From contig CAVTRY010000011.1 of the NCBI GenBank assembly GCA_963737265.1, positions 384,001 through 448,000 on the forward strand: 64,000 nt of DNA, read 5' to 3'. Shown here in pieces: positions 10,737 through 35,775 of the stretch. The notes under the pieces were generated by a model, which was not told the origin of the DNA, did no database searches, and saw only the letters and a list, made by a program, of their open reading frames with translations. Made by a program: the position numbers and the translations under genes. This stretch comes from an uncultured delta proteobacterium (lineage in GTDB: Bacteria > Myxococcota_A > Polyangia > Fen-1088). Numbering within the stretch: position 1 is the first letter of the stretch; every line of letters begins with the position of its first letter.

Positions 10737-10744
10737 CCTAGCCG

Positions 10745-10980
10745 GCCGCGCGAAGCGCGGGGGGCAGGGCGTGTTGGTGGGTGCCGAGTGCCGAGGGCGA
10801 AGCGAACCCTCTTAGGGTTCCCATGAGTCGCGTGGTTCGCAGCGAGCTTTGCTCGCTGTGAACCATCGCGGGAGGGTTTGGGAACCCTTTTAGGGTTCCC
10901 ATGAGTCGCGTGGTTCGCAGCGAGCTTTGCTCGCTGTGAACCATCGCGGGAGGGTTTGGGAACCCTTTTAGGGTTCCCAT
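10745..10980. repeat. Tandem array of 78-bp double-hairpin REP-like units plus an upstream GC-rich module
   Basis: Repeat period 78 (aaccct at 10805, 10883, 10961); hairpins cgcgtggttcgcagcgagc-ttt-gctcgctgtgaaccatcgcg and gggaaccct-ttt-agggttccc. Confidence 0.95.
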
Positions 10981-10985
10981 GATGA

Positions 10986-11014
10986 TTGACACCTGGGATC
11001 GGCAACGATAACTT
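10986..11014 (+). promoter_or_regulatory. Sigma70-type promoter of the bactofilin operon
   Basis: TTGACA-N17-TAACTT, followed by GAGGAGG RBS before ATG 11045. Confidence 0.6.
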
Positions 11015-11044
11015 CCGCCGTGCGCCCGCGCAGAGGAGGACCTG

Positions 11045-11401
11045 ATGGCTAGCGAAGATCCCTGTTTCATTGGCAGCAAGACCACAGTCCGGGGCCAGGT
11101 CTCCGGCAAGCAGGATGTTGTGGTCGAAGGTCGCATCGAAGGCCACATCAGCCTGGACAGCCACCTCACGGTGGAAGAATCGGGAACGGTCGAAGCCGAC
11201 GTCGAGGCGACGGTCGCGACCCTGAAGGGCGAGGTGCGTGGACCGGTGGTGGCAACGCGCTCCGCGGTTCTTCACGCCACGGCCCGCATGGCCGGCAAGG
11301 TCAAGGCGCCGTCCATCGTCATTGAGGACGGGGCGCGGTTTTCGGGTGAAATCGAGATGGATGTCGAGCTGCCGACGGACGTCGTGCCGGGCAACGCCTA
11401 G
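11045..11401 (+). CDS. Bactofilin (BacN-like)
   Basis: IGSKTTVRGQV...VEGRIEGHI...IEDGARFSGEIEM beta-helix repeats. Confidence 0.9.
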   Translation: MASEDPCFIGSKTTVRGQVSGKQDVVVEGRIEGHISLDSHLTVEESGTVEADVEATVATLKGEVRGPVVATRSAVLHATARMAGKVKAPSIVIEDGARFSGEIEMDVELPTDVVPGNA

Positions 11402-11425
11402 GCGGTCGCGCAGAGAGCGGAAATC

Positions 11426-11767
11426 ATGGCAAAGGAAAAGGAAACGAAACCCATGGCGAATACGGTCATCGGAAGCAGCATCGTTATCGACGGCGAAATC
11501 ACCGGCGAGGAGTCGCTCACCATCCTGGGCACGGTGAAGGGCAAGATTTCGACAGCCCAAAGTGTCGTCGTCGAGGCCGCCGCCACCGTCGAGGCCGACG
11601 TGGAGGCTCAAACCGTTACGGTCAGTGGCAAGGTGACGGGCAACGTGACCGCGCGCGAGAAGCTGGAGCTGCGCCCCGAGGCCAAGATGGTCGGCAACGC
11701 CAAAGCCCCGCGCATCGTGGTCGCCGACGGCGCCACCTTCAAGGGCAACGTGGACATGGACGTATAA
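11426..11767 (+). CDS. Bactofilin (BacO-like)
   Basis: MANTVIGSSIVIDGEITG...DGATFKGNVDMDV. Confidence 0.92.
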   Translation: MAKEKETKPMANTVIGSSIVIDGEITGEESLTILGTVKGKISTAQSVVVEAAATVEADVEAQTVTVSGKVTGNVTAREKLELRPEAKMVGNAKAPRIVVADGATFKGNVDMDV

Positions 11768-11776
11768 GGCTCCACC

Positions 11777-12382
11777 ATGGCTGACAAAGAAACGGTGATC
11801 GGCGTCGAAACCAGGATTTCGGGTGAAATCCGCGGCGACGAAGACCTGGTCGTCAAAGGCCGCGTCGACGGAAAGATCCATCTGTCGCAGGCGTTGACGG
11901 TAGAGAAGGGCGCCATCGTGCAGGCCGACGTGGACGTCCGCACGCTGGTCGTGGCGGGTACCTTGGTCGGCAGCATCGTGGCGTCTGAAAGCGTGCGCCT
12001 GCAGCCGACAGCGCGCGTGGTCGGCGATCTCACCTCGCCTCGCGTGATAATGGAAGCGGGCGCAGCCTACCGTGGCCGCGTCGACATGGGCGATGTCGAA
12101 GCCGCCAGAGCCGCGGTTGCCTCGCGCGCGGTCGACAGACCTGCGACGAGCAGCATCGAAGCTGCCAAGACGCGTCCCGCGCCGCCACGCGTGGCCGCGA
12201 CGCCGAGGACGGTCGCGCCCGTCGCGTCGACGACCAAGATCGCGCCGCGTTTCGTTGCGCCGCCAGCGGGGGAGCGAACCGCTGCGGCGCCAGCATCCGC
12301 GCCGCCGGCTTTCCCGCGCGCCGCGGGAGCCGCGAACAGCGCGGCGCCGGCCTGGGCCAAGAAGAAGATCCGCCGCCGATAG
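11777..12382 (+). CDS. Bactofilin with Ala/Pro-rich tail and basic C-terminus (BacP-like)
   Basis: Bactofilin domain, ~90-aa low-complexity tail ending KKKIRRR. Confidence 0.88.
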
Positions 12383-12444
12383 TTGCATCAAAGCAGGCCG
12401 CGCGGCGTGCATCTGGTGACAATTGTGATACGGTTCGCTCGCCC

Positions 12445-13842
12445 ATGTGTGGAGTAATTGGCATTTTCGGGCACCCGGAGGCGTCTAATCTCGCCTATCT
12501 GGGACTGCATGCGCTTCAGCACCGCGGGCAGGAATCCGCTGGCATCGTTTCGAGCGACGGTCAGCACCTGCACTGGGTGCGGGAAATGGGCCACGTCAGC
12601 GAGATCTTCACCGAAGAACGCCTGCGCGATTTGCCCGGCTCGTCGGCCATCGGCCACGTGCGCTACTCGACCACCGGCGATTCCGTGCTGAAGAACGCGC
12701 AGCCCATGGCCGTCAACTACGCGCATGGCTCCATCGCCGTGGCTCACAACGGAAATCTCGTCGACGCCGCGGAGATCCGCGCCCGGCTGGAGGACGAGGG
12801 GTCGATCTTCCAGAGCACCAACGACAGCGAGATCATCCTTCACCTGCTGGCTCGTTCGCGCGAAGGCGACTTGCCTTCACGCATTGCGGATGCCCTGCGC
12901 TCGGTTCACGGCGCCTACTCGCTCGCCTTTCTGTCTGAATCGTCGATGATCGCCGTGCGCGATCCCCTTGGCATCCGGCCGCTGTCGCTCGGTCGTCACA
13001 AGAAGAACGGCTGGGTCGTGGCATCGGAAACCTGCGCTTTCGAGCTCATCGAAGCGGAATTCATTCGCGACATCGAGCCGGGCGAAATGTTGGTCGTCGA
13101 TCGGGAAGGCGCGCGCAGCTTCCATCCCTTCAAGCCCGCGGAGCCGCGCCGCTGCGTCTTCGAGTGGATCTATTTCGCGCGGCCCGATTCCACCATCGCC
13201 GGGCAGTCCGTCTATTCGGCCCGCGAAAACATGGGACGGCGACTGGCCATTGAGCATCCGGTGCCCGCCGACATCGTGGTTCCAGTGCCCGATTCGGGGA
13301 CCGCGGCGGCCATCGGCTATGCGCGCGAGAGCGGCATTCCCTTCGGCCAGGGCCTGATGCGTTCGCACTACGTCGGACGAACCTTCATCGAACCCTCGGA
13401 ATCGATTCGCCACTTCGGCGTGAAGTTGAAGCTGTCACCGGTGCGCGACGTGCTCGCCGGCAAGCGCGTGGTCGTCGTCGACGACTCCATCGTGCGCGGA
13501 ACCACCTCGGGCAAGATCATCGGCATGATTCGGTCCGCTGGCGCACGCGAGATTCACCTGCGCATCAGCTCGCCGCCCACCGTTGGTCCCTGCCACTACG
13601 GCATCGACACCCCCGATCGGGACAAGCTCATCGCCAGCTCTCACACCGTCGACGAGGTTCGCCGTTTCGTGGGCGCCGATACGCTCGGCTATCTTTCCCT
13701 CGCCGGCCTGCACGAATCGGTGGCCAAGGTGCTCACCAAGCAGGAGCATCGCGGCCTGTGCGACGGGTGCTTCTCGGATAAGTATCCCATTCCGCTGCCG
13801 GCGCCGGCTCGTGCGCGCCAACTGCGCTTGATCTCGGCGTAG
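12445..13842 (+). CDS. purF: Amidophosphoribosyltransferase
   Basis: MCGVIG N-terminal Cys, [28 protein letters not shown]. Confidence 0.97.
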
Positions 13843-13924
13843 GCCGCGGCGGGACGAAGCGGCTGGCGGGACGAGGTCGCTGGTGGACGACTGCCGACGA
13901 TCTCCGCGCTAGATTAGGCGCGAC

Positions 13925-15739
13925 ATGATGTCCCCGCCTTCGACCTCGCCGCCGCCGGTCGGGCTGTTTGCCCGTCTCCAGGCGAGCGTGGCGCAGTCTC
14001 GCCAGACCCTCGGGTTGGTGTGGCGATCCTCGCCCAAGGGAACGCTGGGCCTTGGCGGGCTGACCGTGCTCGCGGCGTCGCTGCCGCCACTTGTCGCCTA
14101 CGTGGGTAAGCTGATCGTGGACGCCGTGGTCGCGCGCGACCGCGCGCGGGCCGTGCATATGGTCGTCGTCGAGCTGGCGGCCGTCGGCGTGATGGCGCTG
14201 CTGGAAAGGTCGCTGGGGCTGGTCCGGCAAATCGTGGGCTCACGCCTCGGCATCGACGTCAACGTGGCCATTCTGGAAAAGGCCGCGACGCTCGAGCTCA
14301 GGCATTTCGAGGACTCGGAATTCTACGACAAGCTGTCACGCGCCCGGCGCGAGGCGTCGCTGCGTCCGCTCTCGCTCATAGAAAGCAACTTCTTGGTTCT
14401 GCGCAACGCCATGACTCTGGCGGGCTACATCGCTCTGCTGGTGCATTTCTCCGGACACATGGTGCTGGCGCTGCTCGCCGCCACCATGCCGGCGTTCATC
14501 GCCGAGGCCAAATTCTCGGGCGCAGCCTTCCGCTTGCGCAATTGGCGCTCGCCCGACACCCGCCGGCTGCAACTACCTCGAATACGTGATGGCCAACGAC
14601 GAGCACGCCAAGGAGGTGAAGCTGTTCGATCTCGGCCCGATGTTGCTTGGTCGCTATCGCGCCTTGGCCGAGCGTTTCTTTGCCGAAGATCGCCTGCTGG
14701 CCGTGAGGCGGGCGGGTGGGGCTACGCACTTTCGCTGGTGAGCACGGCCGTGTTTTACGGCTGCTATGCGCTCATCGTCGCAACCACCGTGGCCGGCCGG
14801 CTCTCGCTTGGCGACATGACTCTGTACCTCGTCGCCTTCCGTCAGGGGCAGCAGAGCTTTCAGGCCATTCTCATGGCCGCCGGCAGCATGTACGAGGACA
14901 CGCTCTACATGTCGAACCTGTTCGAATATCTCGCCATCCCGACGGAAAACCGCAAGCGCAAGACTCCCGCCGCCGTCGCGGTCGAGGAAGGAATTCGCTT
15001 CGAAGGCGTCGGATTCCAGTATCCCGGCGCCGAGCGCTGGGCCCTGCGCAATATCAATCTGTTCATCCCCAAAGGACAAAGCCTGGCTCTCGTCGGCGAA
15101 AACGGGGCCGGCAAGACGACCTTCATCAAATTGCTATCCGGCCTGTACCAGCCGAGCGAAGGCCGCATTCGCCTCGACGGCCGCGATCTGGCCGACTGGG
15201 ATCGGCAGGCGCTGCGCCGCCGCATCGGCGTCATCTTCCAGGACTTCAACCAGTACCAATTGCTCCTACGCGAAAACATCGCCTTCGGCAGCGTCGAGCA
15301 CATGCGCGACGACCTGCGCCTGGCCCGCGCCGTCGATCAAGGCGGCGCGCGCGAGATGGTGGCGAACCTCGGCGAGGGGCTTGAAACCCAGCTCGGCCGT
15401 TGGTTCAAGGGCGGCGTCGACCTTTCCGGCGGGCAGTGGCAAAAGGTGGCGCTCGCGCGCGCCTTCATGCGCGACGAGGCCGACATTCTCATCCTCGACG
15501 AACCCACCGCATCGCTCGACGTGGAGGCGGAGCATGCCGTGTTCCAGCGCTTTCGCGCCCTGGCCCATGGACGAACCACGATGCTCATCTCGCACCGCTT
15601 CCCCACCGTGCGCATGGCCGACCGAATCGTCGTGCTCGAAGGCGGCCAAGTCATCGAGGAAGGCACGCACGCCGAACTGCTGGCCGCCGGTGCTCGCTAC
15701 GCCCGCCTATTCGCCTTGCAGGCCGAAGGGTACAGGTAG
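13925..15739 (+). CDS. ABC exporter (fused TMD + NBD) with an internal frame-shifted segment
   Basis: GENGAGKTT, LSGGQWQK, ILDEPT, ISHRF; 14570-14715 is read out of frame between two compensating indels. Confidence 0.9.
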   Translation: MMSPPSTSPPPVGLFARLQASVAQSRQTLGLVWRSSPKGTLGLGGLTVLAASLPPLVAYVGKLIVDAVVARDRARAVHMVVVELAAVGVMALLERSLGLVRQIVGSRLGIDVNVAILEKAATLELRHFEDSEFYDKLSRARREASLRPLSLIESNFLVLRNAMTLAGYIALLVHFSGHMVLALLAATMPAFIAEAKFSGAAFRLRNWRSPDTRRLQLPRIRDGQRRARQGGEAVRSRPDVAWSLSRLGRAFLCRRSPAGREAGGWGYALSLVSTAVFYGCYALIVATTVAGRLSLGDMTLYLVAFRQGQQSFQAILMAAGSMYEDTLYMSNLFEYLAIPTENRKRKTPAAVAVEEGIRFEGVGFQYPGAERWALRNINLFIPKGQSLALVGENGAGKTTFIKLLSGLYQPSEGRIRLDGRDLADWDRQALRRRIGVIFQDFNQYQLLLRENIAFGSVEHMRDDLRLARAVDQGGAREMVANLGEGLETQLGRWFKGGVDLSGGQWQKVALARAFMRDEADILILDEPTASLDVEAEHAVFQRFRALAHGRTTMLISHRFPTVRMADRIVVLEGGQVIEEGTHAELLAAGARYARLFALQAEGYR

Positions 15740-15829
15740 ACACCCACATTGTCGCCATGCCGGCGCGAAAATTCGCTCGGTGCGCATCAGGCACTTGACT
15801 AGAAAGGCCGGATCCCCAATCGTTGGCAC

Positions 15830-16663: not shown

Positions 16664-16666
16664 GAC

Positions 16667-18446: not shown

Positions 18447-18543
18447 GCCCTCGACGTTGCCCCGACGTCTGGCGCCTGGCCCAAGGACCCGTCCGTAGTC
18501 GGCCGTTCGGACGAACGACTTCTAGTAGTTCAGCACCGAGCTC

Positions 18544-21290: not shown

Positions 21291-21497
21291 GGTTCGCGTC
21301 TCCTCTACACCGCGCAATCTATCCGTCTTGGTCGAAAAATCGCAATCGAAGCCGTCACCTTGCACCCTCGGGACGCGCTTGAGCAAGCGACGGTAGGGGC
21401 GAAGCAGCGCCAAGGACGCGTCCCACGCAGCTCAGTCTTTGATGTTGCCGTCATTTTCACCTGACACAATCAGTAGACTTCGCAATCCCAGCAGTCG

Positions 21498-24303: not shown

Positions 24304-24560
24304 ACATCAAATCCATGGCGCCATCCGACGCGTGATTCGGAAGCCAATCATTATGGCGAAGGCTACTCGAAGGCGGGTTTGTCTCGTAGCGAAAGGTGGT
24401 TGACGCGACCCCTCGTTTCAATAGACTGGCGCTCGCAAGCCCCGACCCCTGGGTATTGGACGCTGCCAACTGACCCCGAACGCCCGACCCTTTGGGTTTT
24501 GGGGCCGTCGGTACGCAACGAATCTCCCGGCCCCCTCAGTCGGGGAATCAACTCCCGGAT

Positions 24561-26575: not shown

Positions 26576-27432
26576 CTACTTGGAATGCCGTGGCCCGAAG
26601 AAGCGATCACCGTTGTAGTGAAGGAGGTGATCAGGAAACTCTGCAACCCATACCTCGGTTTCCCAGGCGATCTCGTCAGCATACCTTTTGAATTCGCGGA
26701 ACGATGGGAACGCCGAGACGTACACCCGACCCGGTGCCAATTGCGATCTTCATCGTAGAGCACGACATCTGGAAGCTTGTCGTGCTTGGTAACTGGCACG
26801 CCGAGTGCGGTGAGTTGGGTCTCGACGATCAGCTTGGTCTTGTGATCTGTGTCGCCGAGATAGAGAACAATGGTGTTTGCGGCGAATCGAGGCAGGAAAG
26901 TCTGGATGATTTCGGCCTGCAGCAAGTTGTGCACGCCTGGCGACAATTCAAGCGACGTGCCTCCGGGGAGAGATACGGCAACCGCGGCCTGTTTTCTCGC
27001 GCGCCCATACAGCTCCGCAAGCCCACCTTTTTGCGCAGTCAAGAATCGACGAACGGCAGTTTCAAATCCCTTCGCCCCGAATGTGCGAATGACTTCGAGG
27101 GCCTCCGGAGTAAGTGCGTAGTGCGTTCGTGGTGAGTTCGTAGCCAGGTTCGGATCGTCGGGGTTGCGTGCCAGGATGCCTCCTTGCACGAATTGGTGAA
27201 TCGCCTGGCGACGAATCGTCTCCCGCGTATTCTCCGCGTAGATCTTATGATAGTTGTCCCTGGCGAATGCAATCACATCGTGCGGCGTTCGGCGCGGATT
27301 ACTCGCCTTGCCCCATGGTGTTCTCGGCCCGATATTTGCGAACGCAAGCAAGGTATAGACAGCGTTTGGGTTCTGCTGCTCCGTCGGCATGCCGAATGCT
27401 GCGAGTATATCCTTGGCGTCATCAGGCTTCAC
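26576..27432 (-). pseudogene. BsuBI/PstI-family type II restriction endonuclease, inactivated by internal deletion and frameshift near 26735
   Basis: YAENTRETIRRQ, TNSPRTHY, LSPGVHNLL, HDKLPDVVLYD; C-terminus VYVSAFP...IAWETEVW...HYNGDRFFGP is in another frame. Confidence 0.85.
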
Positions 27433-28945
27433 CAAGCACCCCACTCGCCGCAGTGTCTGCCGATTGTCCACCAGCCACACGTGTCGCGATAGCGTCGAGA
27501 ATAGGCCCGGGTGGCAATGGCAAAGCGCGGAGTTCAGTGGCACTCACCTGCGTGTTGCCGCTTGAAATCCGAAAGTAGGAATCGATGAGATCCGAGTTGA
27601 GAAGAGCGGCGAGTCCGATGGCCTCCGAGGTCGAGAGCTCGCCGCCTGGACGATGGATGAAGTTCACATGATTTTCGAGGCCGATCATGTCAGTCGGGAG
27701 ACACCCAGCAAGGTACGGCCCTGCGACCAGCCGGCGTGCATCTTCCTTGGCTGAGAAGCGACGAATGAGCACGTAGGTGCGGTTTGCAACTAGGAGCTTT
27801 GGGCCTGCGCCGCGCTCTATGTGTTCGGGCTTCCGAAATCCACCGGCGAGGGGCCATCTGACAACGCCCGGGAGCACGTGTTGAAGCCACAGCAGCGGCA
27901 CCGTACTGGCGGATGGCGCCTCACGAAGGAATTCCTCCGCGCGAAAGGGCACGACGGGGCCTGTCGATACTTCGAGTTTCATAGTGGCCAAGGTTCCAGC
28001 CCACCCTTCGACCATGTCCATGACTCGAAGATCGCGGCGATTGGATGGCAAGAACACGGACGAATCACGTTCTTCCGCAATCACGCGACCGCGCGGGACA
28101 ACGCTGATCGCTCGCTCTGCAAGGTCGGATTCCCCCTGGGACGACGAGATCGTCACCGACGGATTCGGCAGATCGGTCTTCCTGTACATCACGATGATGT
28201 TCTCTTGGAGCACGCCGTCGTTACGAAAAGCGTCGGTCCGAGACTCGAATACGTGAACGTGATCGAGGCGAGCGACGGAATGGAGACGTCGCCGGAAGCG
28301 TTTGAAGTAGTAACCGGACGAGAAGCTCCTCGGAATGATGAAGCAAATTTGTCCGCCACCCGTAAGCATCCTAATCGCAACATCGACAAAGCGTGCGTAG
28401 GCGTTTGGTGCGTCACCACCAGAATCATCAGTTGGCGACATCTTGAAGTACGGCGGGTTTCCGATGGCGTAGTCGAAGCTCGGCAGTGGCCTTGTGCCAA
28501 GTCTAGGGCGATCAAGTTCGAGAAAATCGTCCTCGACAACGCTGTACTGAAGGCGTTCTCCCCAAGTTTGCTGTGCGGCTGCCAACGATTCGCGGAGAAT
28601 TCGAGCGGCACCTGGTTCCTTCTCGACCGCGGTGAGATGAACTCGGCCGGGGCACCGGCGAAGCAGATCGTTGACCGCGGCGATTCCGAGAACCCCCGTT
28701 CCGGCCCCGGGATCAAGAATGCGCACGCATTCGCCACGGGGAGCATCGAAGAGGGACGCCATGAATGCCGCAATCTTGGGACTCGTAAAGAACTGCCCCC
28801 ACGATTTCTTGTGTGCATCACCCGTGTCGCTGCGATAGCCGGCGGACAGAGCTGCTACATTGTCGAATATCTCACCCGTGTGCAATTCGCCCTCGATGAG
28901 GCTGGCGAAAGGGGACGAATGAAGACCTGAATGTCTCATGTTCAC
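27422..28945 (-). CDS. N6-adenine DNA methyltransferase, M.BsuBI/PstI (Eco57I/TaqI-like) family
   Basis: GQFFTS, ILDPGAGTG (motif I), IGNPPYFK (motif IV), STGPVVPFR, SGNTQVSATEL; lower GC than flanks. Confidence 0.9.
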   Translation of the reverse strand: MNMRHSGLHSSPFASLIEGELHTGEIFDNVAALSAGYRSDTGDAHKKSWGQFFTSPKIAAFMASLFDAPRGECVRILDPGAGTGVLGIAAVNDLLRRCPGRVHLTAVEKEPGAARILRESLAAAQQTWGERLQYSVVEDDFLELDRPRLGTRPLPSFDYAIGNPPYFKMSPTDDSGGDAPNAYARFVDVAIRMLTGGGQICFIIPRSFSSGYYFKRFRRRLHSVARLDHVHVFESRTDAFRNDGVLQENIIVMYRKTDLPNPSVTISSSQGESDLAERAISVVPRGRVIAEERDSSVFLPSNRRDLRVMDMVEGWAGTLATMKLEVSTGPVVPFRAEEFLREAPSASTVPLLWLQHVLPGVVRWPLAGGFRKPEHIERGAGPKLLVANRTYVLIRRFSAKEDARRLVAGPYLAGCLPTDMIGLENHVNFIHRPGGELSTSEAIGLAALLNSDLIDSYFRISSGNTQVSATELRALPLPPGPILDAIATRVAGGQSADTAASGVLGEA

Positions 28946-28990
28946 TCTGATGGAGGATGGCCGATAACGGATTGTGTGTAAACCGGCTTC

Positions 28991-29018
28991 GCGAAATTCG
29001 ATGAGCGAAATTCGATGA
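28991..29018. repeat. 14-bp tandem direct repeat upstream of the MTase (candidate operator)
   Basis: GCGAAATTCGATGA twice, each with near-palindromic CGAAATTCG. Confidence 0.6.
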
Positions 29019-29032
29019 TAAGAACGGAAATA

Positions 29033-30121
29033 TCAGAAAACCATGGTGAGGAAGCTGTCGAGGCCCTGGCGCCAGGTGTCCTTGTAGGCCAGCACCTCGA
29101 CCAGCGAGGGCTCTTTCTTCACCTGCACCGTAACCTCGTCGCCGCCGTCTCGCGTGGGGAGCCGGCCGGCTTCGCCGGCCGCGGACCTTCGCGGGAGGGT
29201 TTGGGAACCCTCCGAGGGTTCCCATGTCAGATCAATATCGACGGTGTTGTCGGCGCGGAAGTCGTTGTTCACCATGAAGGGCGGGTCGATGTAGACGAGG
29301 TCGACCTTGCCCCGGTAGCGCCAGTCGCGCGTGCCAGGATCCTTCTCGTCGAGCAGGGTCTGGAGCGCGACCAAGTTGTCATTGGTCCAGATGAGGCGAT
29401 TCGGCGGCAACGTGGTCACGTCGCGCGCCTCCGCCGTGCGGATCTCCAGCCCCGCCAACTCGCCCCGATCCATGGCCCGCCCCGGCCGCACGATCTCCAC
29501 CACCTGCGTTGGCACCGAGGCCGCCATCTCCTTGCGCCACATGCCCTGCCAAGCCAGCCGCGGCTTTCGCGGAGTAACATCCAACGTGATTTCCAGCCCC
29601 GCGCCCTCGCTCGCCGTCGCGTCCACATCGGTCGTGTTCGGCACCGGCAAGGACGGCGTGCGCACCGAGCGCGTGACCGGCGGTGGCGTCGGCTCCAGCA
29701 GCGGGAACCCCTGCCAAGCAAGCTGCGTCTGGGCCGGCGCGGGCGGCGCGGGCGCCGCAGGTGGCGCGACCTTGGCGGCCTCTTCCTTGCGCACCTTCTT
29801 CACCTTGGGCTCCGGCGTTTCGTTGTCCCCGTCGCCGTCATCGTCGTCTCGCCCGCGCTCCGCCGCCAGAATCCGATCCACCAGCACCTGCTTCTCGCGC
29901 CCCTCGGCCGAGATGCCCACCGCAAAGCAAACCGACTTCAGCGTGTCGCGCGCGAGCAGTTCCAGAATCTTCTCCAGAATCCCCCGCTTCTTGCTGCCCG
30001 CCACCACGTCCATCATCTCGTCGAGCCGCATGCCGCTGGTCACGCCAAGATCGAGCGTCTTGCCGACTTCCAACAACTCCGCCCGCGTGAGCGCCCCGAG
30101 CGCCTTGCGTTTGAAGGCCAT
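29033..30121 (-). pseudogene. 5' part of a type III Mod-like DNA methyltransferase, truncated
   Basis: NRLIWTNDNL, GKVDLVYIDPPF, AYKDTWRQGLDSFLTM then abrupt stop in AT-rich sequence; no FxGxG motif I. Confidence 0.85.
29150..29227. repeat. 78-bp palindromic unit inserted in frame in the mod gene
   Basis: tcgcgtgg...gccggc-ttc-gccggc...tcgcgggagggtttgggaaccct-ccg-agggttcccat matches the 10825-10902 unit. Confidence 0.9.
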
Positions 30122-30201
30122 GGCCCGGCATCGTACACGACGCAGGAGCCCCGGAATAGTGCGAGCGCGGCTATGCGGAGGCCCGATCCTTCTGGCGAGG
30201 T

Positions 30202-30729
30202 CTAGCGCGGTTCGCGGGCGAGCCGTCGCTTCTTGAAAGTCTCGTCGAAGGTCGTGTAGTCGTTCGGCCGCCCTTGAACCTGGCGCTTGTCGTCCCAGAT
30301 CGAGGCTTTCTCGCGCGCCTCTTCGAGTGAAACCTCGCCACTCTCCACAGCCTCCACCATCAAATCCATGATGTCACCCGCGGGGACGCCGTTGTCCTTG
30401 GCACAAGCACGAGCGCGCTTGTCGATGGAAACGAATAGAGGGCGTTGCTCTTGTGGCAACTGCATCGCCCATGCAACCGCCTCGGCCTCGCCCTTGTCGT
30501 GGCCCTTCTGTTTGAGGTCGCGAAGATTCGCGTCTCTGGCAGAGAGATCGTGAATGCGCAGACGTTCGGTCTTGCAAAAGGCATCTACGTCCACCGCTAC
30601 CGTCGAAAGTTCGTGCCTGGCGATGTATCCCGTCATCAGCCACGAACCCTTTCCAGAGGCCAATGAGCGCAGGAAGGACAGCTTGCGAATGCAGAGGAAT
30701 GCGTCGGCGTCGAAAAGAACGTCCCTCAC
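30202..30729 (-). CDS. PIN-domain protein (putative toxin/RNase)
   Basis: VLFDADAF, DKGEAEAVAWA, FVSIDKRAR; GTGA overlap with upstream gene. Confidence 0.75.
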   Translation of the reverse strand: MRDVLFDADAFLCIRKLSFLRSLASGKGSWLMTGYIARHELSTVAVDVDAFCKTERLRIHDLSARDANLRDLKQKGHDKGEAEAVAWAMQLPQEQRPLFVSIDKRARACAKDNGVPAGDIMDLMVEAVESGEVSLEEAREKASIWDDKRQVQGRPNDYTTFDETFKKRRLAREPR

Positions 30730-31928
30730 GCGACCGTCACGGACAGGTCTTCCGATGGAAGGTTCAGGGCGAAGAAGTCGAGAACGCTTTCCAGGTCGGC
30801 GGCGGGGGTAATGCCCAAGGCATCGGCAAACTGGTCGCGCCGAATTCGCCCGGCCGAATAGAGGCGAGCCGCAACGCGCGCGACCTCGGTTCGGCGTTCG
30901 GGTTTCACCTCGTCGAGCGGGAAGCCGTCGATTCCGGTTGGCTCTTCGTGGGTAACCCACCGGGCCTCTGTTCCCAAAACAGTGAAAGCCGGACCTGGAT
31001 TCTCTGGCAGCTCGACCTGGCCTTCATTCCGAAGGTACAAGCGGATCGCGCCGTAGGGCAGTCCGTAGCTCGCCAGGGCTCGGGCGGTTTCGGGGTTGGA
31101 AAGGGTGGCGTCTTTTGCGACCAATCCCTGGATGATCTTCTGCGGGCAGATGAGGCGTACCGCAAACGCATTCGCACGCTGCTCGACTTCGAGTTGCTTG
31201 TCGTTGAGATAGCCGGAGATCGTCGCGACCGGCTCAAGCCGGTTCCAGTCAGGAAGCAGGTGACAGAGTTCGTGCGCAAGGCTGAACCTTCGGACACACG
31301 GGTTCTTGTTCTTTCCTTCGAGGTTCAAGACGATAGTCGGCCCGCGAAGATGATCGAGGAAGGTCAGTCCGGCTGGACCAGCTCCGCCCAACTCGGCATA
31401 GAGCACGGAGATCGAAGGGAATCGCTCGGCAACGAAATCGCGCATGGACAAGATGGGCGCATCGTGGAGCTTGAGCTTGCTTCGGAGATCGGCGGCGCAT
31501 TTCGCTCCCTGTTGGTAAGGCAGCCGTCCCTTGATAGCTTCAAGCCCTGGTGTCTCTTTCCTGAACTTCTCGCGCCCGTCCTCGTTGGTTTCCAGATGGC
31601 GCAGACTGGCGAGGTCGCGCGCGGCATTTGCTGCGGCCACAACGCGTACACGGGTCATGTCGTCAAGAGCATGGAATTCGTCGAGACTCGCCAGCGTGAC
31701 CACACCGTCCCCCTTGGCTAGTTGAATCGGCTCATCGGCAAGCCGGTCAGCGTCGATCCCATAAATGCGCGAAAGCGCGTCGGCCTCGAAGACCGTCGGA
31801 GCGTCGCCATGCTCTTCGATGCGCGCAAGGCGTTCGACCGAAACATGGGACATTCTGGCGGCAGCCTCTCTGGTGTAACCCAGTAGCCTCTCGCGAACGT
31901 CCCTGAGATTCTCGACTTTGGTGGTCAA
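30726..31928 (-). CDS. XRE-HTH + ImmA/IrrE (COG2856) metallopeptidase
   Basis: N-terminal HTH (LRDVRERLLGYTREAAARM...RLARIEE), RRFSLAHELCHLL, EQRANAFAVRL; TTG start after AGGAG. Confidence 0.88.
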   Translation of the reverse strand: MTTKVENLRDVRERLLGYTREAAARMSHVSVERLARIEEHGDAPTVFEADALSRIYGIDADRLADEPIQLAKGDGVVTLASLDEFHALDDMTRVRVVAAANAARDLASLRHLETNEDGREKFRKETPGLEAIKGRLPYQQGAKCAADLRSKLKLHDAPILSMRDFVAERFPSISVLYAELGGAGPAGLTFLDHLRGPTIVLNLEGKNKNPCVRRFSLAHELCHLLPDWNRLEPVATISGYLNDKQLEVEQRANAFAVRLICPQKIIQGLVAKDATLSNPETARALASYGLPYGAIRLYLRNEGQVELPENPGPAFTVLGTEARWVTHEEPTGIDGFPLDEVKPERRTEVARVAARLYSAGRIRRDQFADALGITPAADLESVLDFFALNLPSEDLSVTVA

Positions 31929-32154
31929 GGGGAAAGCACCTGCTCCTAGTATCGGATCGGAAGTCCCGTCAAGGCCCTGAAATTTCGGGGTGAAGGCGAG
32001 GCAAATTTTCCACCCCGCAGCGCTGGCCGTCAAGCTCCAGGCGGGCTGCGATTGTGCGAAGGATTTCGGCCTTGCAGGCATGGGTGAAGGCGTGGCGCAC
32101 ACCGTCAACCATTGGCGTGGCTTTGCAGGGCGCGGCATGGCCCGCCGAGGATCG

Positions 32155-32949
32155 TCAATGTCGAGCTTTCCGTTTCGCCACTTTCGGCTTTTTCGTCACT
32201 GCCCTCGATGGCTTCTTGGCTCTCGGTTTCTTGGCCTCGCCCGCGCCAAGATCCAGGCCGAAGATATCGGACAATTCGTCGTCGGCCAGAACCTTGGCGG
32301 CCGTCGGGTCTTTCTTCGAAAGCGGCATCCCCTTCCCCGCCTTGGCAATGAGATCCTTCTCGTCGACCTTGCGCAACTTAAATAGCAGCTCCGGACGCTC
32401 GTCGAGGCGAGCGCCGATGCCGTAGAGCACGGCGGCGACGTGCTTGCACATCGACGCCCAGTCGGGGCAGCTGCACGTGAGGTGGATCTCGGCGGGCGCG
32501 GGGAACAGCCCGGTCTTCTGCCGGCAAATGCGTTCCATGACCCCTTTCGAGAAGCGCCCTTGCAAGAGTTCAACCAGCGAGTCGATGGCGCCGGCACAGT
32601 CGGCGCAAATGGCATTCCAACGCGCCTTCGGCACGGCCGATACGTTCACCGCGACGTCGTAGATTTCCGACCCGCTGACGCGCGCCTTGATCTGGCCGGG
32701 CGCGATTTGCAGGTCGACCACGGAGCCGTTGCGCACGTAGGTGCGCCCGCGCGGCAGCCGGTTGGAATAGTCGCTGTAGCCTTCGAGGTTGTCGCACCAC
32801 GATTTTCCCCAGAAGGTCTTGGCGATGGTCCGGCCTTCGATCGCCACCGGCGACACCGGGTGGCCCTTCTTCGCGAGCTTCGCCATTTCGCGAGCTGCCT
32901 TGCGCCGCCGCTCGGCCACGGAAACATAGGGACGCCATTCGTAGAACAT
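32155..32949 (-). CDS. SWIM zinc-finger protein (YwqB-like partner of SNF2)
   Basis: NRLPRGRTYVRNG, CSCPDWASMCKH, LFKLR. Confidence 0.9.
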   Translation of the reverse strand: MFYEWRPYVSVAERRRKAAREMAKLAKKGHPVSPVAIEGRTIAKTFWGKSWCDNLEGYSDYSNRLPRGRTYVRNGSVVDLQIAPGQIKARVSGSEIYDVAVNVSAVPKARWNAICADCAGAIDSLVELLQGRFSKGVMERICRQKTGLFPAPAEIHLTCSCPDWASMCKHVAAVLYGIGARLDERPELLFKLRKVDEKDLIAKAGKGMPLSKKDPTAAKVLADDELSDIFGLDLGAGEAKKPRAKKPSRAVTKKPKVAKRKARH

Positions 32950-32952
32950 GCA

Positions 32953-35775
32953 TCACTCCTTCATCGCGGCTTTCAGATCCAGGGCCACGAGCCGCAGTAG
33001 CTCGTCGTCTTTCAGCTCGGTCAGGTTCAGCTCGCCACCGCCTTCGAGCAGTTCCTTCGAGAGCTGTTTCTTCGATTCGATGAGCTCGTCGATCTTCTCT
33101 TCGACGGTTCCCCGACACACGAACTTGTGAACCAGCACGTTCTTGGTTTGGCCGATGCGAAAGGCCCGGTCGGTGGCTTGGTTCTCAACGGCTGGGTTCC
33201 ACCAGCGATCGAAGTGCACGACGTGTGACGCCGCGGTGAGGTTCAGCCCCGATCCGCCGGCCTTGAGCGACAGCACGAAGAACGGAACCGATTCGTCCTC
33301 TTGAAAGCGCCGGACCAGATCCTTGCGCTTCTTCACTTCGGTCTCGCCGTGCAAGACCAATCCGGGACGACCGAACACACCGCCCAGGAACGAGGCCAGC
33401 GGCGCCGTCACTTCACGGAATTGGGTGAACACCAGCGCCTTCTCTTGCTTGGCGGCAATGACCTCGGCGAGATCGCGCAACCGCGCCCACTTGCCGCTGT
33501 CGTCCTCGGCCCAAGCTCCGTCGCCCAGCCATTGCGACGGATGATTGCAAATCTGCTTGAAGCGCATGAGGAAGGAGAGGACCAGTCCCTTGCGACGAAT
33601 GCCCTCGGCGTCGTCCAGTTGTTCAGCCAGATCGGTGACTGCCTGCTGATAGAGCGCGGCCTGCTTGCGACTAAGCTGGCAGAAGGCCTTCACCTCGGTC
33701 TTTTCCGGCAGATCCGAGATGACCGTCCGGTCGGTCTTGAGCCGCCGCAAGACGTACGGCCGGACCAGCTCACGCAGGGGACCGTATGGGTTGTGAGGCT
33801 TGTCCGCCAGACTCTTGGTGTAGCTTCCAAACTCCTTGGCCGAGCCGAGCAGCCCGGGATTGCAGAAGTCGAAGATCGACCACAGATCGCCGAGCCGGTT
33901 CTCAATGGGCGTGCCGGTGAGCGCGATACGCGCGTGCGCCACCAGCTTCTTGACCGCCTTGGTTTGCTTGGCGCCGGGATTCTTGATGGCTTGGGCTTCG
34001 TCGAGAATGGCTAGGTTCCACTTGGTCGTCGCAAGCCATGGGATGTGCAAGAGCGATCCATAGCTCGTAATCACCAGATCGACTTCCGCGACTCGCTCGG
34101 GCGACAGCGACGCCAACTCGTCCGCGGACACGGCGGACGTGTGCGCGACGAGCGCCATGAGACCGGGCGCAAAACGAGCGAGCTCATCGGCCCAGTTGGC
34201 GAGCAGCGAGGCCGGCGCCACCAGCAGGCTCGGCCGCGGCTTGCTCTTCGCCGAACCACGCAACACCAACAACAGCGACAAGACCTGGATGGTCTTGCCA
34301 AGCCCCATGTCGTCCGCAAGGCAAGCGCCGAGCCCCAGTCGCGAAAGCAGGTGCAGCCAGCGCACGCCAACCTCTTGGTAGGGGCGGAGCGTGCCGCGTA
34401 GATCGCGGCCCGGATCGATTTTGGCAAGCTCTTCTGGCGAACGCAGCCCCTTGAGCGTCTCGGCGAGCCACGGCCCCGCGACCACGCGCGACCAATCGGG
34501 ATCCGTGCCGGTCGCCGCCCCATCCTTGGTGACGTCCGCGCCCGCAAGCATGCGCATGGCCTCGGCAAACGTAAGCCCATCCTTGGCCGCGAGCCGCTCC
34601 GCCTCCTGGAAATGGGCCATCGTCCGCCGCAGGCGCTCGCTGTCGACTTCAACCCATTGCCCGCGAATGAGTGCGAGCCCGTTGGCGCTGGCCAGAATGT
34701 CCCTCACCTCGCGGGCGCTCAGGCTCTCGCCGTCGAGCGAGACCTCCATGCGAAAATCCAGCAAGGCGTCCTGCCCAAACGAAGCTGCCGCCTTTGTCCC
34801 GACGGTGGCCGTCACCTGTGGGCGGGACGGGCGCCCGGTCCGCCACGTCGCAGGCATGCGCACGACGACACCGGCACGCTCCAGTTGTGGCACGTCACCG
34901 AGAAATTGAAATGCCTCTCGCGGCGACCAGCGCAGCGGGTGGAAGATCTCGCCTGCGTCGACCATCTGTTTCAGCCAGGCACAAGATTCCGCCGCGCGCT
35001 GAACCGGCAGCAAGAGCGAGAGCAGCTTTTCCTTGTTGGCCGCGCCAGCGTAGTCGCGCAACGCCTGCCCGAGCGGCAGGTGCTGGGCTTTGCCGTGCGC
35101 CGACAGCCGGTGCGTGTAGGTCGCAAGAAATGCGAAGGGGGCAGTCTCGTCCTTGCGGTTCTCGGCGAGGTTGAAATGCACCTTGCCCACGACGTTCCAC
35201 GCCGGATGAAGGCGCTTGAGAAACTCCTGGACGGTAGTCTTTGCCTCGGCCAGCTCGACGAAACACGCCGTGCCAATAGCCGCCCAAAGTGAAATCAGGA
35301 CATCGGTCGTCAGGTATTCGGCGCCCGGCATCGCCGGAGCCGCGGCGGCCAGAGAATTGATGTCCTCGGGCGGCGACGGCGGTTCTAGCCGTCGTTGGTC
35401 TGGAAACCCTGGGAGGGTTTCCATGCCCGAGGCCCCTGCCTGCCCCTTTCCCCGCCGCTCGCTTCGCTCGGCCTCGCGCGATGGTTCGCGCCGAGCAAAG
35501 CTCGGCGGCTCCCCACGCGACTCGTCGACGTTAGGTCGGGCACAAAGCGCGGTGACAAATCGGCTGGCGAATTCCCGCCAGTAGGCGAAGACCGGAGGAA
35601 CCACCTCCTCCACCTCGGCCGCGCCAAGCCTCAAGAGTCCATGTCCCGCACCACGAGCAAACGCCCGCTCCATGCGTTCGCCGAATTCGGGAGCGAGCAT
35701 GGGCGCATCCTCCGACGGAGAAAGCAAGAGCCGGCCGTGGGGTGTCAGGCATGTGGTCAGGCGCGGTTCGTTCAA
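32953..35775 (-). CDS. SNF2-family ATPase (YwqA-like)
   Basis: LRPYQ, LADDMGLGKT, ILDEAQAIKN, LTGTPIEN, FDRWWNPAVENQATDRAFRIGQ; start uncertain (listed start lies in the tRNA fragment). Confidence 0.92.
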   Translation of the reverse strand: MNEPRLTTCLTPHGRLLLSPSEDAPMLAPEFGERMERAFARGAGHGLLRLGAAEVEEVVPPVFAYWREFASRFVTALCARPNVDESRGEPPSFARREPSREAERSERRGKGQAGASGMETLPGFPDQRRLEPPSPPEDINSLAAAAPAMPGAEYLTTDVLISLWAAIGTACFVELAEAKTTVQEFLKRLHPAWNVVGKVHFNLAENRKDETAPFAFLATYTHRLSAHGKAQHLPLGQALRDYAGAANKEKLLSLLLPVQRAAESCAWLKQMVDAGEIFHPLRWSPREAFQFLGDVPQLERAGVVVRMPATWRTGRPSRPQVTATVGTKAAASFGQDALLDFRMEVSLDGESLSAREVRDILASANGLALIRGQWVEVDSERLRRTMAHFQEAERLAAKDGLTFAEAMRMLAGADVTKDGAATGTDPDWSRVVAGPWLAETLKGLRSPEELAKIDPGRDLRGTLRPYQEVGVRWLHLLSRLGLGACLADDMGLGKTIQVLSLLLVLRGSAKSKPRPSLLVAPASLLANWADELARFAPGLMALVAHTSAVSADELASLSPERVAEVDLVITSYGSLLHIPWLATTKWNLAILDEAQAIKNPGAKQTKAVKKLVAHARIALTGTPIENRLGDLWSIFDFCNPGLLGSAKEFGSYTKSLADKPHNPYGPLRELVRPYVLRRLKTDRTVISDLPEKTEVKAFCQLSRKQAALYQQAVTDLAEQLDDAEGIRRKGLVLSFLMRFKQICNHPSQWLGDGAWAEDDSGKWARLRDLAEVIAAKQEKALVFTQFREVTAPLASFLGGVFGRPGLVLHGETEVKKRKDLVRRFQEDESVPFFVLSLKAGGSGLNLTAASHVVHFDRWWNPAVENQATDRAFRIGQTKNVLVHKFVCRGTVEEKIDELIESKKQLSKELLEGGGELNLTELKDDELLRLVALDLKAAMKE
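35398..35523. repeat. 126-bp composite palindromic element inserted in frame in the SNF2 gene
   Basis: Minus strand gagtcgcgtgg...ccgagc-ttt-gctcgg...gaaccatcgcg...ggccgagcgaagcg...tggaaaccct-ccc-agggtttcca matches the 10745-10980 modules. Confidence 0.88.

What the first reader, a model, noticed from the sequence alone, without database searches (positions are those of the whole stretch)
10745..35523. Mobile double-hairpin repeat family that inserts in frame into protein-coding genes
Seen: the same element occurs (i) as a 78-bp tandem array between udg and the bactofilins (10805-10980), (ii) as a 78-nt block in the mod gene (29150-29227, antisense, 26 aa TWEPSEGSQTLPRRSAAGEAGRLPTR) and (iii) as a 126-nt composite block in the SNF2 gene (35398-35523, sense, 42 aa ESRGEPPSFARR...METLPGFPD). 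Both coding copies are multiples of 3 with no stop. Stems covary between copies (gcgagc-ttt-gctcgc / gccggc-ttc-gccggc / ccgagc-ttt-gctcgg and gggaaccct-ttt-agggttccc / gggaaccct-ccg-agggttccc / tggaaaccct-ccc-agggtttcca), so structure is conserved while sequence drifts. Known parallels are REP/BIME elements spread by RAYT (TnpA-REP) HUH nucleases and Rickettsia palindromic elements that insert into ORFs. Inference: an active, modular, coding-compatible non-autonomous element that adds peptide loops to proteins, including recently acquired island genes. I know of no such family described for this lineage.
Basis: partly seen in the sequence, partly recalled or inferred. Interest (0 to 1): 0.85.

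Follow-up and report, generated by a model that had tools for sequence, protein, structure and literature searches.

The report
Two-hairpin mobile repeat translated inside genes
An 81-base DNA repeat that folds into two hairpins has spread through a group of uncultured soil myxobacteria and, where it lands in frame, is read as an extra loop in working proteins; this behaviour is already known from Rickettsia and other bacteria.

Summary
The three window sites are copies of one family. There are 59 copies at 38 loci in this genome. The diagnostic pattern occurs 1-100 times in each of 12 same-genus genomes, and in 22 of 41 genomes searched in all. It gave at least 120 stretches in public genome assemblies labelled Polyangia or Myxococcales.

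The unit is about 81 nt. It has a long first hairpin whose stem varies between copies but stays paired, and a conserved second hairpin of 9-12 bp.

Orthologues with an empty site show real in-frame insertions in four genes. These are SNF2 (126 nt), a truncated DNA-methylase gene (81 nt), an M16 peptidase (81 nt) and HflX, which carries an in-frame tandem array of 0-5 copies among species of the genus. The udg-bactofilin array is missing in 2 of 5 same-genus genomes.

Three points are not supported:
- A link to a RAYT transposase.
- Coding compatibility as a built-in design.
- Identical dispersed copies, which a recent burst would leave.

The enzyme that moves the element is unknown.

This is a new family of a known kind (RPE-like and intragenic-REP-like). 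The scan has seen the phenomenon, but not this family, on other DNA.

The parts
10744..10827 (+). G-rich 'module 3' segment followed by a truncated hairpin-2, heading the array after the udg stop codon
   Evidence: Sequence. The same module is found at C22:124475, in the SNF2 copy and in relatives. The whole block is absent from the same intergenic site in G001 and G012.
10828..10905 (+). Array unit 1 (78 nt): hairpin 1, the CGCGGGAGG-GTTT linker and hairpin 2
   Evidence: period 78, 99% matches; covariance model 71 bits.
10906..10983 (+). Array unit 2 (78 nt), abutting native GATTG
   Evidence: 83 bits. The right flank GATTGACACC is present in the empty site of G001.
29147..29227 (+). Solo 81-nt copy. 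The element's folding strand is +; it is read antisense as 27 aa in the minus-strand methylase fragment.
   Evidence: 92.7 bits. It is absent from the orthologues of G010 (98% identical flanks) and G017. Metagenome contigs of relatives also skip it (joint 29129>29238).
29033..30121 (-). 5' fragment of an N6/N4 DNA-methylase gene (DPPF motif just before the element), cut off 43 codons after the element
   Evidence: No Pfam hit for the fragment. The G010 orthologue is open for 1013 aa and matches PF01555 at E 5.7e-39. Similarity ends right after ...DSFLTM.
35397..35522 (-). Composite 126-nt copy, read in sense as 42 aa in the N-terminal region of SNF2
   Evidence: It is absent in G008, G010, G002 and G025. 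G004 has a plain 81-nt copy at the same point. A metagenome contig skips it (joint 35380>35524).
35428..35476 (-). Nested G-rich module between hairpin 1 and hairpin 2 of the SNF2 copy
   Evidence: 45 nt extra relative to the G004 copy. Three contigs of run X3 skip 35427>35477.
32953..35898 (-). Host gene: SNF2-family helicase, 981 aa
   Evidence: Pfam SNF2-rel_dom 507-788, DUF3670 319-450 and Helicase_C 808-916. The element lies at about aa 126-167, outside these domains.

Best explanation
This is a non-autonomous, REP/RPE-like selfish DNA element of about 81 nt, found in a clade of uncultured Polyangia.

Structure. One strand folds into two hairpins. Hairpin 1 has a CGCG foot, a 3-4 bp outer stem, a purine-rich internal loop and a 7-8 bp apical stem. 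The apical stem sequence varies freely but stays paired. A conserved linker (CGCGGGAGG-GTTT) leads to hairpin 2, GGGAACCCT-NNN-AGGGTTCCC, whose 2-3 basal pairs also covary.

Spread. Copies enter new sites without terminal inverted repeats and without a consistent target duplication. They land next to a short R-A-Y-N-G-like motif. They then multiply locally into head-to-tail arrays by slippage or unequal exchange.

Selection. It removes copies that break genes. What remains inside genes has a length divisible by three, has no stop codon, and sits in linkers or loops, where it is translated as a Pro/Gly/Arg/Ser-rich peptide in whichever of the six frames it happened to land.

What is shown: the family, the fold, the insertions and copy-number changes at orthologous sites, and the frame constraint. 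What is inferred: the enzyme. I think a single-strand (HUH/Y1-type) mechanism acting in trans is the most likely, at about 35%. No gene could be tied to the element.
For: Family size and spread
- 59 copies at 38 loci here.
- 1-100 pattern matches per genome in 12 of 12 same-genus genomes, 22 of 41 genomes in all, reversed control 0.
- At least 120 stretches in public assemblies; all 80 listed are labelled Polyangia, Myxococcales or (delta)proteobacterium.

Fold
- 90.7% of cells paired, and 16 of 27 pairs show changes on both sides.
- In the hairpin-1 inner stem, G.T outnumbers A.C 12 to 1. This points to one folding strand.

Filled and empty orthologous sites
- SNF2.
- Methylase. G010 carries a different private copy elsewhere in the same gene.
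- M16 peptidase: exactly +81 nt in this genome and G008, empty in G010, G002, G001 and G012. A solved homologue (3amj_C) has 3 residues at that point.
- HflX: 2 x 84 nt here, 5 copies in G001, degenerate in G008 and G002, none in G010 and G012.
- Y1 paralogues: net +81 nt.
- udg-bactofilin spacer: empty in G001 and G012, larger in G008 and G002.

Other species
- 16 of 114 evaluable loci pass a conservative test for an in-frame position inside a gene.
- All 10 spanning ORFs of those 16 that I scanned (10 of 10) have Pfam domains. They include RNase R, succinyl-CoA ligase, a molybdopterin oxidoreductase and a DEAD helicase with a 6-copy array.

Frame constraint
- Insertions inside genes measure 81, 81, 81, 126, 2x84 and 6x78 nt. 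Arrays at C13:557451, C14:154488 and most units at C7:179311 have a period of 80.

Ends and target
- Conservation starts at RRTCG|CGTG and ends at CCCAT-S-T-M-A-A-Y-S-G.
- The last five positions are native sequence in the empty sites: AACGG, GATCG, (CA)GATC and GATTG.
Against: - No mobilising gene was found. The only Y1/RAYT-like family is not flanked by the element: 0 hits in 11 loci. Its presence does not follow copy number. No transposase-like cluster appeared among 676 ORFs next to copies in 120 loci.
- Orientation shows no bias with GC skew: 19 of 38 loci, and 12 of 25 where skew is strong. Replication-coupled single-strand transposons would be expected to show one.
- Dispersed copies in this genome are at most 89% identical, with a median of 61.5%. 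There is therefore no sign of a recent burst here.
- One site (M16) has CGATCG on both sides of the insert. That would fit a target duplication.
- Some copies hold conserved places next to stable-RNA genes. Those could be functional rather than selfish.
- The MAG is rated 7.6% contaminated. However, the family is on 14 of its 25 contigs.
Confidence: 0.8

Rival explanations
1. It is a true REP/REPIN family moved by the genome's RAYT-like Y1 transposase, that is, a REPtron.
For: - A 307-aa Y1 protein with an HxH motif matches NCBIfam 'REP-associated tyrosine transposase' (NF047646, E 2.4e-12) and Pfam Y1_Tnp weakly.
- The genome has 2 intact copies (C23, C22) and several broken ones.
- The element has hairpins, no inverted terminal repeats and no regular duplication.
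Against: - Both profile scores are under the curated cut-offs: 46.9 against 80 bits, and 20.9-21.8 against 23.
- No copy of the element was found in 11 loci holding this gene, with about 1.5 kb of flank each.
- In the C16 copies the element interrupts the gene and truncates it.
- G008, with 100 pattern matches, has only a fragment of the gene. G011, G012, G013 and G035 have 11-32 matches and no hit. G006 has the gene and 1 match.
- The GTAG foot occurs in 11-13 of 133 copies and the CGTC foot in 13 of 133.
- Arrays are head-to-tail. Only 1 of 38 loci has an adjacent inverted pair.
Confidence: 0.12
2. It is a conventional MITE cut and pasted by a DDE transposase. On this reading the ends TGGGGAGCC and GGGTTCCCA act as imperfect inverted repeats, and a 4-6 bp (G)ATCG target is duplicated.
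For: - The two ends share about 7 of 10 bases when one is reverse-complemented (my reading of the consensus).
- The M16 insertion is flanked by CGATCG on both sides, and the empty sites hold one such motif.
- Both conserved ends carry an RRTCG/AAYSG-like pentamer.
Against: - At SNF2 and the methylase gene no duplication is seen, and at the Y1 gene 7 nt are replaced.
- No larger element with the same ends exists in this genome. All shared flanks I checked were segmental duplications or other small repeats.
- Under one reading, SNF2 orthologues closer to this genome than G004 lost the copy without a scar.
Confidence: 0.12
3. It is mainly a functional structured motif, for example an RNA processing or stability signal or a protein-binding site. 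On this reading it is kept by selection and copied by recombination rather than being a parasite.
For: - Structure is strongly conserved, with a conserved internal loop, across many species.
- The fold is strand-specific.
- One copy lies 14 nt upstream of 23S rRNA. A hairpin-2 copy lies 10 nt after 5S in inverted orientation. Copies abut tRNA-Trp and tRNA-Lys.
- The tRNA-Trp position recurs in another species (L045).
Against: - Copy number ranges from 1 to 100 pattern matches within one genus.
- Presence or absence differs between genes that are 98% identical.
- Both orientations occur inside genes: 4 sense and 3 antisense among the hosts I checked.
- There is no Rfam match. The best hit is 31.7 bits against a threshold of 196.
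- There is no T-run as in intrinsic terminators.
Confidence: 0.1

Closest known systems
Rickettsia palindromic elements (RPEs; Ogata et al. 2000, as summarised in PMC10969869, passages read)
   Same: - A palindromic repeat of about a hundred bases or less.
- Many copies sit in frame inside unrelated housekeeping genes and are translated as extra peptide.
- No known transposase.
- Several sub-families.
   Different: - A different lineage (free-living soil Polyangia, 63.5% G+C).
- 81 nt rather than about 150.
- Two separate hairpins with a hypervariable compensated stem.
- Frequent head-to-tail arrays, including in-frame arrays that vary in copy number between species.
- Sequence relatedness to RPEs was not tested, because no RPE sequence was at hand.
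REP/REPIN elements with RAYT transposases, and GTAG-/CGTC-tagged REPs including intragenic ones (Di Nocera et al. 2013, PMC3733652, passages read; PMC3337134, abstract seen)
   Same: - G+C-rich hairpin repeats present in tens to hundreds of copies.
- Unevenly spread among related species.
- Mostly between genes, but some lie inside genes and encode 20-30 aa.
- No target duplication.
   Different: - No GTAG or CGTC tag in most copies.
- No RAYT gene flanked by the repeat.
- Tandem direct arrays rather than inverted dimers.
- The unit is a fixed pair of unlike hairpins rather than one palindrome.
IS200/IS605-type single-strand transposons and their gene-less derivatives
   Same: - Subterminal hairpins on one strand.
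- No inverted terminal repeats and no duplication.
- Insertion beside a short specific motif that resembles the element's opposite end.
- Possible scar-free loss.
   Different: - No orientation bias with replication.
- No linked TnpA gene.
- The hairpins sit at the very ends rather than 10-20 nt inside.
Coxiella QMITE1, intragenic ERIC and similar MITEs that form in-frame fusions (PMC10969869 passages; PMC5896051 abstract)
   Same: Small non-autonomous repeats whose insertion into ORFs creates in-frame peptide additions.
   Different: Those elements are defined by terminal inverted repeats and target duplications. Neither is clearly present here.

Membership tests
REP/REPIN-RAYT system (REPtron) | A RAYT (Y1 HUH) gene flanked by REPs of the same family | tested here: not met
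   There were 0 element hits in 11 loci carrying the only RAYT-like family: 2 from this genome and 9 from relatives. At C16 the element lies inside the gene and truncates it.
REP/REPIN-RAYT system (REPtron) | The protein scores as a RAYT or Y1 transposase above the curated cut-offs | tested here: not met
   NF047646 gives 46.9 bits against a cut-off of 80. PF01797 gives 20.9-21.8 bits against a cut-off of 23. The relationship is distant at best.
GTAG-/CGTC-tagged REPs (Di Nocera et al. 2013) | A conserved GTAG or CGTC tetranucleotide at the hairpin foot | tested here: not met
   At the hairpin-1 foot, GTGG occurs in 63 of 133 copies, GTAG in 11 and GTCG in 13. Counting within the first 10 alignment columns gives GTAG 13 and CGTC 13.
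REPIN | Two REPs in inverted orientation as the replicating unit | tested here: not met
   Of the 8 loci with two or more copies, 6 are purely head-to-tail. Only C11:1143490/1143608 is an adjacent inverted pair.
RPE-like coding palindromic element (by behaviour) | In-frame, stop-free copies inside conserved genes that are absent from orthologues | tested here: met
   SNF2, methylase, M16 peptidase and HflX in this genome. In other species, 16 of 114 loci qualify, and 10 of 10 scanned hosts have Pfam domains.
RPE (by descent) | Sequence similarity to RPE-1 to RPE-10 | not tested
The lineage and base composition make common descent unlikely.
MITE (DDE-mobilised) | Terminal inverted repeats | tested here: inconclusive
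   The ends share about 7 of 10 bases when reverse-complemented (my reading). No autonomous partner with these ends was found.
MITE (DDE-mobilised) | A target-site duplication of fixed length | tested here: inconclusive
   One of the four sites compared for this (M16) has CGATCG on both sides. SNF2 and the methylase gene show none, and at the Y1 gene 7 nt are replaced.
IS200/IS605-type single-strand element | Strand-specific hairpins, and insertion beside a short motif without duplication | tested here: inconclusive
   G.T outnumbers A.C 12 to 1 in the hairpin-1 inner stem. An R-A-Y-N-G-like native motif sits at 4 of 4 empty sites compared. However, its information content is weak (0.04-0.52 bits) and n is small.
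IS200/IS605-type single-strand element | Orientation bias with the direction of replication | tested here: not met
   19 of 38 loci agree with the sign of local GC skew, and 12 of 25 where |skew| exceeds 0.01.
Rfam RNA families | A match at the gathering score | tested here: not met
   The best match is 31.7 bits against a threshold of 196. All 13 listed matches are generic hairpin models.

The most novel reading that the evidence does not exclude
The element is moved by a so far unrecognised enzyme or mechanism. It would read a two-hairpin single strand with a conserved GNA/GGA-type internal loop, and would insert and excise without a scar beside an R-A-Y-N-G motif. This would explain why two different sub-families occupy the identical point in SNF2 in two species, while closer relatives are cleanly empty.

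Its in-frame arrays would also act as a natural length-variation system for loops of housekeeping proteins. Examples are HflX with 0-5 copies and a DEAD helicase with 6.
Probability: 0.12. Interest if true: 0.75.

Novelty: new member of a known kind. Interest (0 to 1): 0.45.

Why it matters
In-frame selfish palindromes were first regarded as a curiosity of Rickettsia. This case shows the same behaviour, with unusually clean before-and-after evidence, in free-living soil myxobacteria with large genomes.

It adds two less familiar features. The first is a fixed two-hairpin unit whose first stem changes sequence freely while staying paired. The second is in-frame tandem arrays whose copy number differs between sister species, inside conserved enzymes such as HflX.

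For annotation, these copies create spurious ORFs, split Pfam domain hits and inflate protein lengths in Polyangia MAGs. For biology, the family offers many natural insertion and deletion pairs. These can be used to ask which protein loops tolerate 27-140 extra residues, and to search for the unknown enzyme that moves tag-less hairpin repeats.

Tried and rejected
- Rfam scan of the array: nothing near any gathering score.
- Earlier notes of this scan, looked up by sequence and by related places: nothing.
- Sequencing runs: no RNA holder listed. Only one DNA run holds about half of the words, and it is probably the source sample. The contigs I laid gave only supporting joints, from other organisms at 85% likeness.
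- AlphaFold2 model of HflX with its insert, on a 6-row alignment: mean pLDDT 41.6, unusable, so nothing is concluded about the loop.
- A transposase near the copies:
  - PF01797 in this genome gave one sub-threshold family.
  - The region C11:1072500-1083000, with three copies, holds PIN, ParA, ParB, HhH-GPD and MshEN genes and no transposase.
  - Clustering 676 neighbouring ORFs from 120 loci gave only signalling and housekeeping families.
- A larger repeat around C11:797704 and C13:328393 turned out to be another small composite repeat of about 250 nt.
- Exact boundaries at the parB-downstream site could not be derived, because the spacers differ entirely between species.
- The idea that the inserts are spliced out of mRNA, with two hairpins as cut sites: rejected. 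All insertions checked inside genes keep a length divisible by three and have no stop, whereas arrays at C13:557451, C14:154488 and most of C7:179311 have period 80.
- The idea of a selected protein repeat domain: rejected. The same DNA is read in different frames and on both strands in different hosts, and most copies lie between genes.
- Literature: searches pairing REP or MITE terms with Myxococc* or Polyangia found no description of this family. Di Nocera et al. 2013 has no mention of Myxococc*, Sorangium or Haliangium in its main text. Its supplementary species lists could not be opened and might bear on this.

Full report
**What is there**

Its repeat pattern occurs only in assemblies labelled Polyangia, Myxococcales or (delta)proteobacterium.

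- The spacer between udg (PF03167) and the first of three bactofilin genes (PF04519) holds two full 78-nt units and a truncated one. TRF gives 10804-10982, period 78, 99% matches.
- The minus-strand ORF 29033..30373 reads TWEPSEGSQTLPRRSAAGEAGRLPTR through the second copy.
- The SNF2 ORF 32953..35898 reads a 42-aa block through the third.

**A real family**

Three rounds of nhmmer, started from one unit, give 59 non-overlapping copies (E<1e-4) at 38 loci on 14 contigs. Eight of these loci hold 2-7 copies. A covariance model built later also returns 59 matches at E<=0.001. Five of those are opposite-strand echoes in arrays, and only 150 of 6615 candidates were scored.

In 41 genomes (this one and 40 relatives) it occurs in 22, while the reversed control occurs 0 times in all. 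Counts are:
- 21 in this genome
- 94, 97, 87, 98, 14, 1, 30, 100, 24, 63, 32 and 11 in the twelve same-genus genomes
- 19, 5, and 1 each in six genomes, among the twelve other genomes of the same family (0 in the remaining four)
- 23 in one genome of another family (G035)
- 0 in the remaining 15

No Rfam family matches.

**Anatomy**

I aligned 133 distinct copies from this genome and its relatives. The consensus unit runs in this order:
1. RRTCG-CGTG.
2. Hairpin 1: a CGCG foot, a 3-4 bp outer stem, an internal loop (GGAGC/CGNA or GNA/GGA), and a 7-8 bp apical stem with a TTT-like loop.
3. The linker (A)TCGCGGGAGG-GTTT.
4. Hairpin 2: GGGAACCCT-NNN-AGGGTTCCC, with 2-3 further basal pairs.
5. The tail AT-S-T-M.

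For the structure I specified, 90.7% of cells pair. The figure is 81.7% in column shuffles and 37-43% when partners are slid. 296 cells carry changes on both sides against 88 expected (0 of 500 shuffles). The four central pairs of hairpin 1 each show 37-54 such cells, and the basal pairs of hairpin 2 show 7-18.

Many of these cells are inherited within sub-families, so they count sequences, not events. In the hairpin-1 inner stem, G.T pairs outnumber A.C 12 to 1. In hairpin 2 the ratio is 7 to 4. This suggests that one particular strand folds, as DNA or RNA.

A third part recurs nested between or inside the hairpins, in either orientation. It is G-rich, forms no hairpin, and measures about 45-60 nt. 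It is seen at:
- the head of the window array
- the SNF2 copy
- C11:1286973 and C22:124415
- the C23 array
- copies in other species

**Insertions proved by empty sites**

*SNF2.* Orthologues in G008, G010 and G002 (same genus) and G025 (another family) run straight from ...PD(A/I)(D/E)E to RQ.ELPPPP. This genome has 126 extra bases there. G004 has a plain 81-nt copy at exactly the same point, with a different, fully compensated apical stem.

*Methylase.* G010 (98% identical over the flank, open for 1013 aa, PF01555) and G017 lack 81 nt that this genome has just after the DPPF motif. G010 carries its own private copy about 110 codons upstream. The window's gene stops matching its orthologues right after ...DSFLTM and ends one codon later. 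It is therefore a 5' fragment.

*M16 peptidase (C12:156745).* This genome and G008 have exactly 81 extra bases (27 aa) between ...MGFLLDR and PSF.ETFANQRDVVKNE. G010, G002, G001 and G012 do not. A solved homologue, 3amj_C, has three residues at that point.

*HflX (C14:157049).* The insertion lies between ERALLVVAE.GK and SRVHEL.EL. This genome has two identical 84-nt units. G001 has five and a partial one. G008 and G002 have a degenerate copy with the G-rich module. G010 and G012 have none.

*A Y1-transposase-like gene.* The full paralogues on C23 and C22 are uninterrupted. Three C16 copies carry a net +81 nt that brings a TGA and ends the frame at residue 200.

*The udg-bactofilin spacer.* G001 and G012 have 22-74 nt where this genome has about 250-300. 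G008 and G002 have more.

*Metagenome contigs.* Contigs from soil, rhizosphere and peat metagenomes, laid at 85% likeness, pile up on the two gene-internal copies and include joints that skip each of them. These come from other organisms and only add colour.

**How general inside genes**

In this genome at least 6 of 38 loci are in-frame copies inside a gene. Four have orthologue or domain support on both sides. The others are the DUF222-HNH gene (Pfam only) and a PilZ-domain ORF. One further event disrupts a gene. The rest lie between genes.

A conservative test, which misses SNF2 and the methylase fragment, passes 4 of 38 loci here and 16 of 114 evaluable loci from other species. I scanned 10 of those 16 hosts and all 10 have Pfam domains:
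- RNase R: between the RNB and S1 domains
- Succinyl-CoA ligase alpha: between its two domains
- A molybdopterin oxidoreductase, an acyltransferase and DUF6057: inside the domain match
- A DEAD helicase: six 78-nt units splitting the domain
- Also a Ser/Thr kinase, a histidine kinase, a TPR protein and a RING-finger protein

The same DNA is read in different frames and on both strands. For example...WEP..GS......MGTL.GFP... and ...GNP.RVP... all come from hairpin 2.

**Is it built to be coding-compatible?**

No. Copies average 4.23 open frames of six, against 3.96 for random 81-mers of this genome and 3.33 for shuffles. All six frames are open in 6.8% of copies, against 7.8%. High G+C alone leaves most frames open.

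The signal of selection lies elsewhere. Every insertion checked inside a gene has a length divisible by three (81, 81, 81, 126, 2x84, 6x78). Arrays at C13:557451, C14:154488 and most units at C7:179311 have a period of 80.

**How it moves**

Conservation begins abruptly at RRTCG and ends after the tail. In the four empty sites compared, the last five 'conserved' positions are native sequence: AACGG, GATCG, (CA)GATC and GATTG. The element therefore lands next to a loose R-A-Y-N-G motif that resembles its own opposite end.

No duplication is seen at SNF2 or the methylase gene. Seven bases are replaced at the Y1 gene. M16 has CGATCG on both sides. Inverted terminal repeats are at best 7 of 10.

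At SNF2, two sub-families occupy the identical point in this genome and in G004, while closer relatives are cleanly empty. That means either repeated insertion at a hotspot or scar-free loss. All this fits a single-strand, HUH-type mechanism best, but the fit is circumstantial.

The genome's only Y1 family is RAYT-like at best (NF047646 46.9 bits against 80; PF01797 about 21 against 23). It is not flanked by the element in any of 11 loci. It does not follow copy number across genomes. One lineage of it is a victim of the element.

Orientation shows no bias with GC skew: 19 of 38. No transposase-like family recurs next to copies.

Arrays with identical units, and copy numbers that differ between sister species, point to slippage or unequal exchange after insertion. 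Dispersed copies here are at most 89% identical, with a median of 61.5%. The family is therefore old and diverse. Gains and losses are visible at the species level rather than as a fresh burst in this genome.

**Comparison with the known, and verdict**

In-frame palindromic repeats are established:
- RPEs, intragenic ERIC and QMITE1 (PMC10969869, passages read)
- Intragenic GTAG/CGTC REPs encoding 20-30 aa, in Opitutus terrae and Rickettsia conorii (PMC3733652, passages read)

This scan has reported the phenomenon in several other phyla. It has not reported this family.

The present family fails the defining tests of tagged REPs and of REPtrons and is not clearly a MITE. By behaviour it is RPE-like. 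My searches found no description for myxobacteria. Supplementary lists of the REP surveys could not be read.

I file it as a new member of a known kind. It is well documented and of moderate interest, and the open question is which enzyme moves it.

Noticed in passing
window 28940-29035, and 27422-28945 (-): The methylase gene loses all similarity to its orthologues right after ...DSFLTM. It runs into lower-G+C DNA that holds a perfect 14-bp tandem duplication (28991-29018). An Eco57I/N6_Mtase-like gene follows. This looks like a replacement or insertion breakpoint inside a restriction-modification island.
   Followed up: partly
L132 (G000:C22:252500-262000): 6363-6415 and 3019-3054: In the rRNA operon (16S, tRNA-Ile, tRNA-Ala, 23S, 5S on the minus strand), one copy lies 14 nt upstream of the 23S 5' end in the sense orientation. 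A hairpin-2-only copy lies 10 nt past the 5S 3' end in inverted orientation. The two could pair in the precursor as a processing stem.
   Followed up: partly
L131 2900-3169 (G000:C11:1143399-1143668); L133 2812-3372 (G000:C7:179311-179871): Copies abut tRNA genes. Three lie about 7 nt upstream of tRNA-Trp, and the same position recurs in another species (L045). A 7-unit array begins 11 nt after tRNA-Lys.
   Followed up: partly
L175 2784-3743 (G000:C23, downstream of the RAYT-like gene); upstream of the C22 copy: The RAYT-like Y1 genes are followed or preceded by long 'stutter' arrays of a different short repeat, which translates as ...GKTLAPPKR.../...ERPWHHPS.... It is unrelated in sequence to the present family.
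   Followed up: no
L157 (G010:C14), about 110 codons upstream of the DPPF motif: The G010 orthologue of the methylase carries its own in-frame copy (...GDGNPSRVP...) at a site that is empty in this genome. Two sister species have thus each hit the same gene at different points.
   Followed up: partly
L059 1528-1995; L116 4201-4389: Another species has six identical 78-nt units in frame inside the DEAD domain of a helicase gene. Another has two copies in a 1102-aa ORF. The L116 record has a masked run of N inside the repeat.
   Followed up: partly
G000:C11:797704 and C13:328393, with partial copies at C11:97404, C13:365398 and C21:89121: A copy of the element is embedded in a different composite repeat of about 250 nt, present several times in the genome. 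This genome holds several nested families of small repeats.
   Followed up: partly
L200 (G008:C17), spacer after parB: Where this genome has the element between convergent genes, G008 has an unrelated hairpin repeat (GGGCGGGTTT-CAAACCCGCCC type) and G010 has almost no spacer. Spacers between convergent genes appear to be shared landing places for different small repeats.
   Followed up: no
window 40170-40298: A 15-bp tandem repeat with 7.3 copies (93% matches), overlapping 30-bp periodicity, listed by Tandem Repeats Finder. Not examined.
   Followed up: no
whole assembly G000: The assembly is rated 99.5% complete but 7.6% contaminated. The repeat family is on 14 of the 25 contigs, so the finding does not depend on one contig. 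Counts per genome should still be read with that in mind.
   Followed up: no
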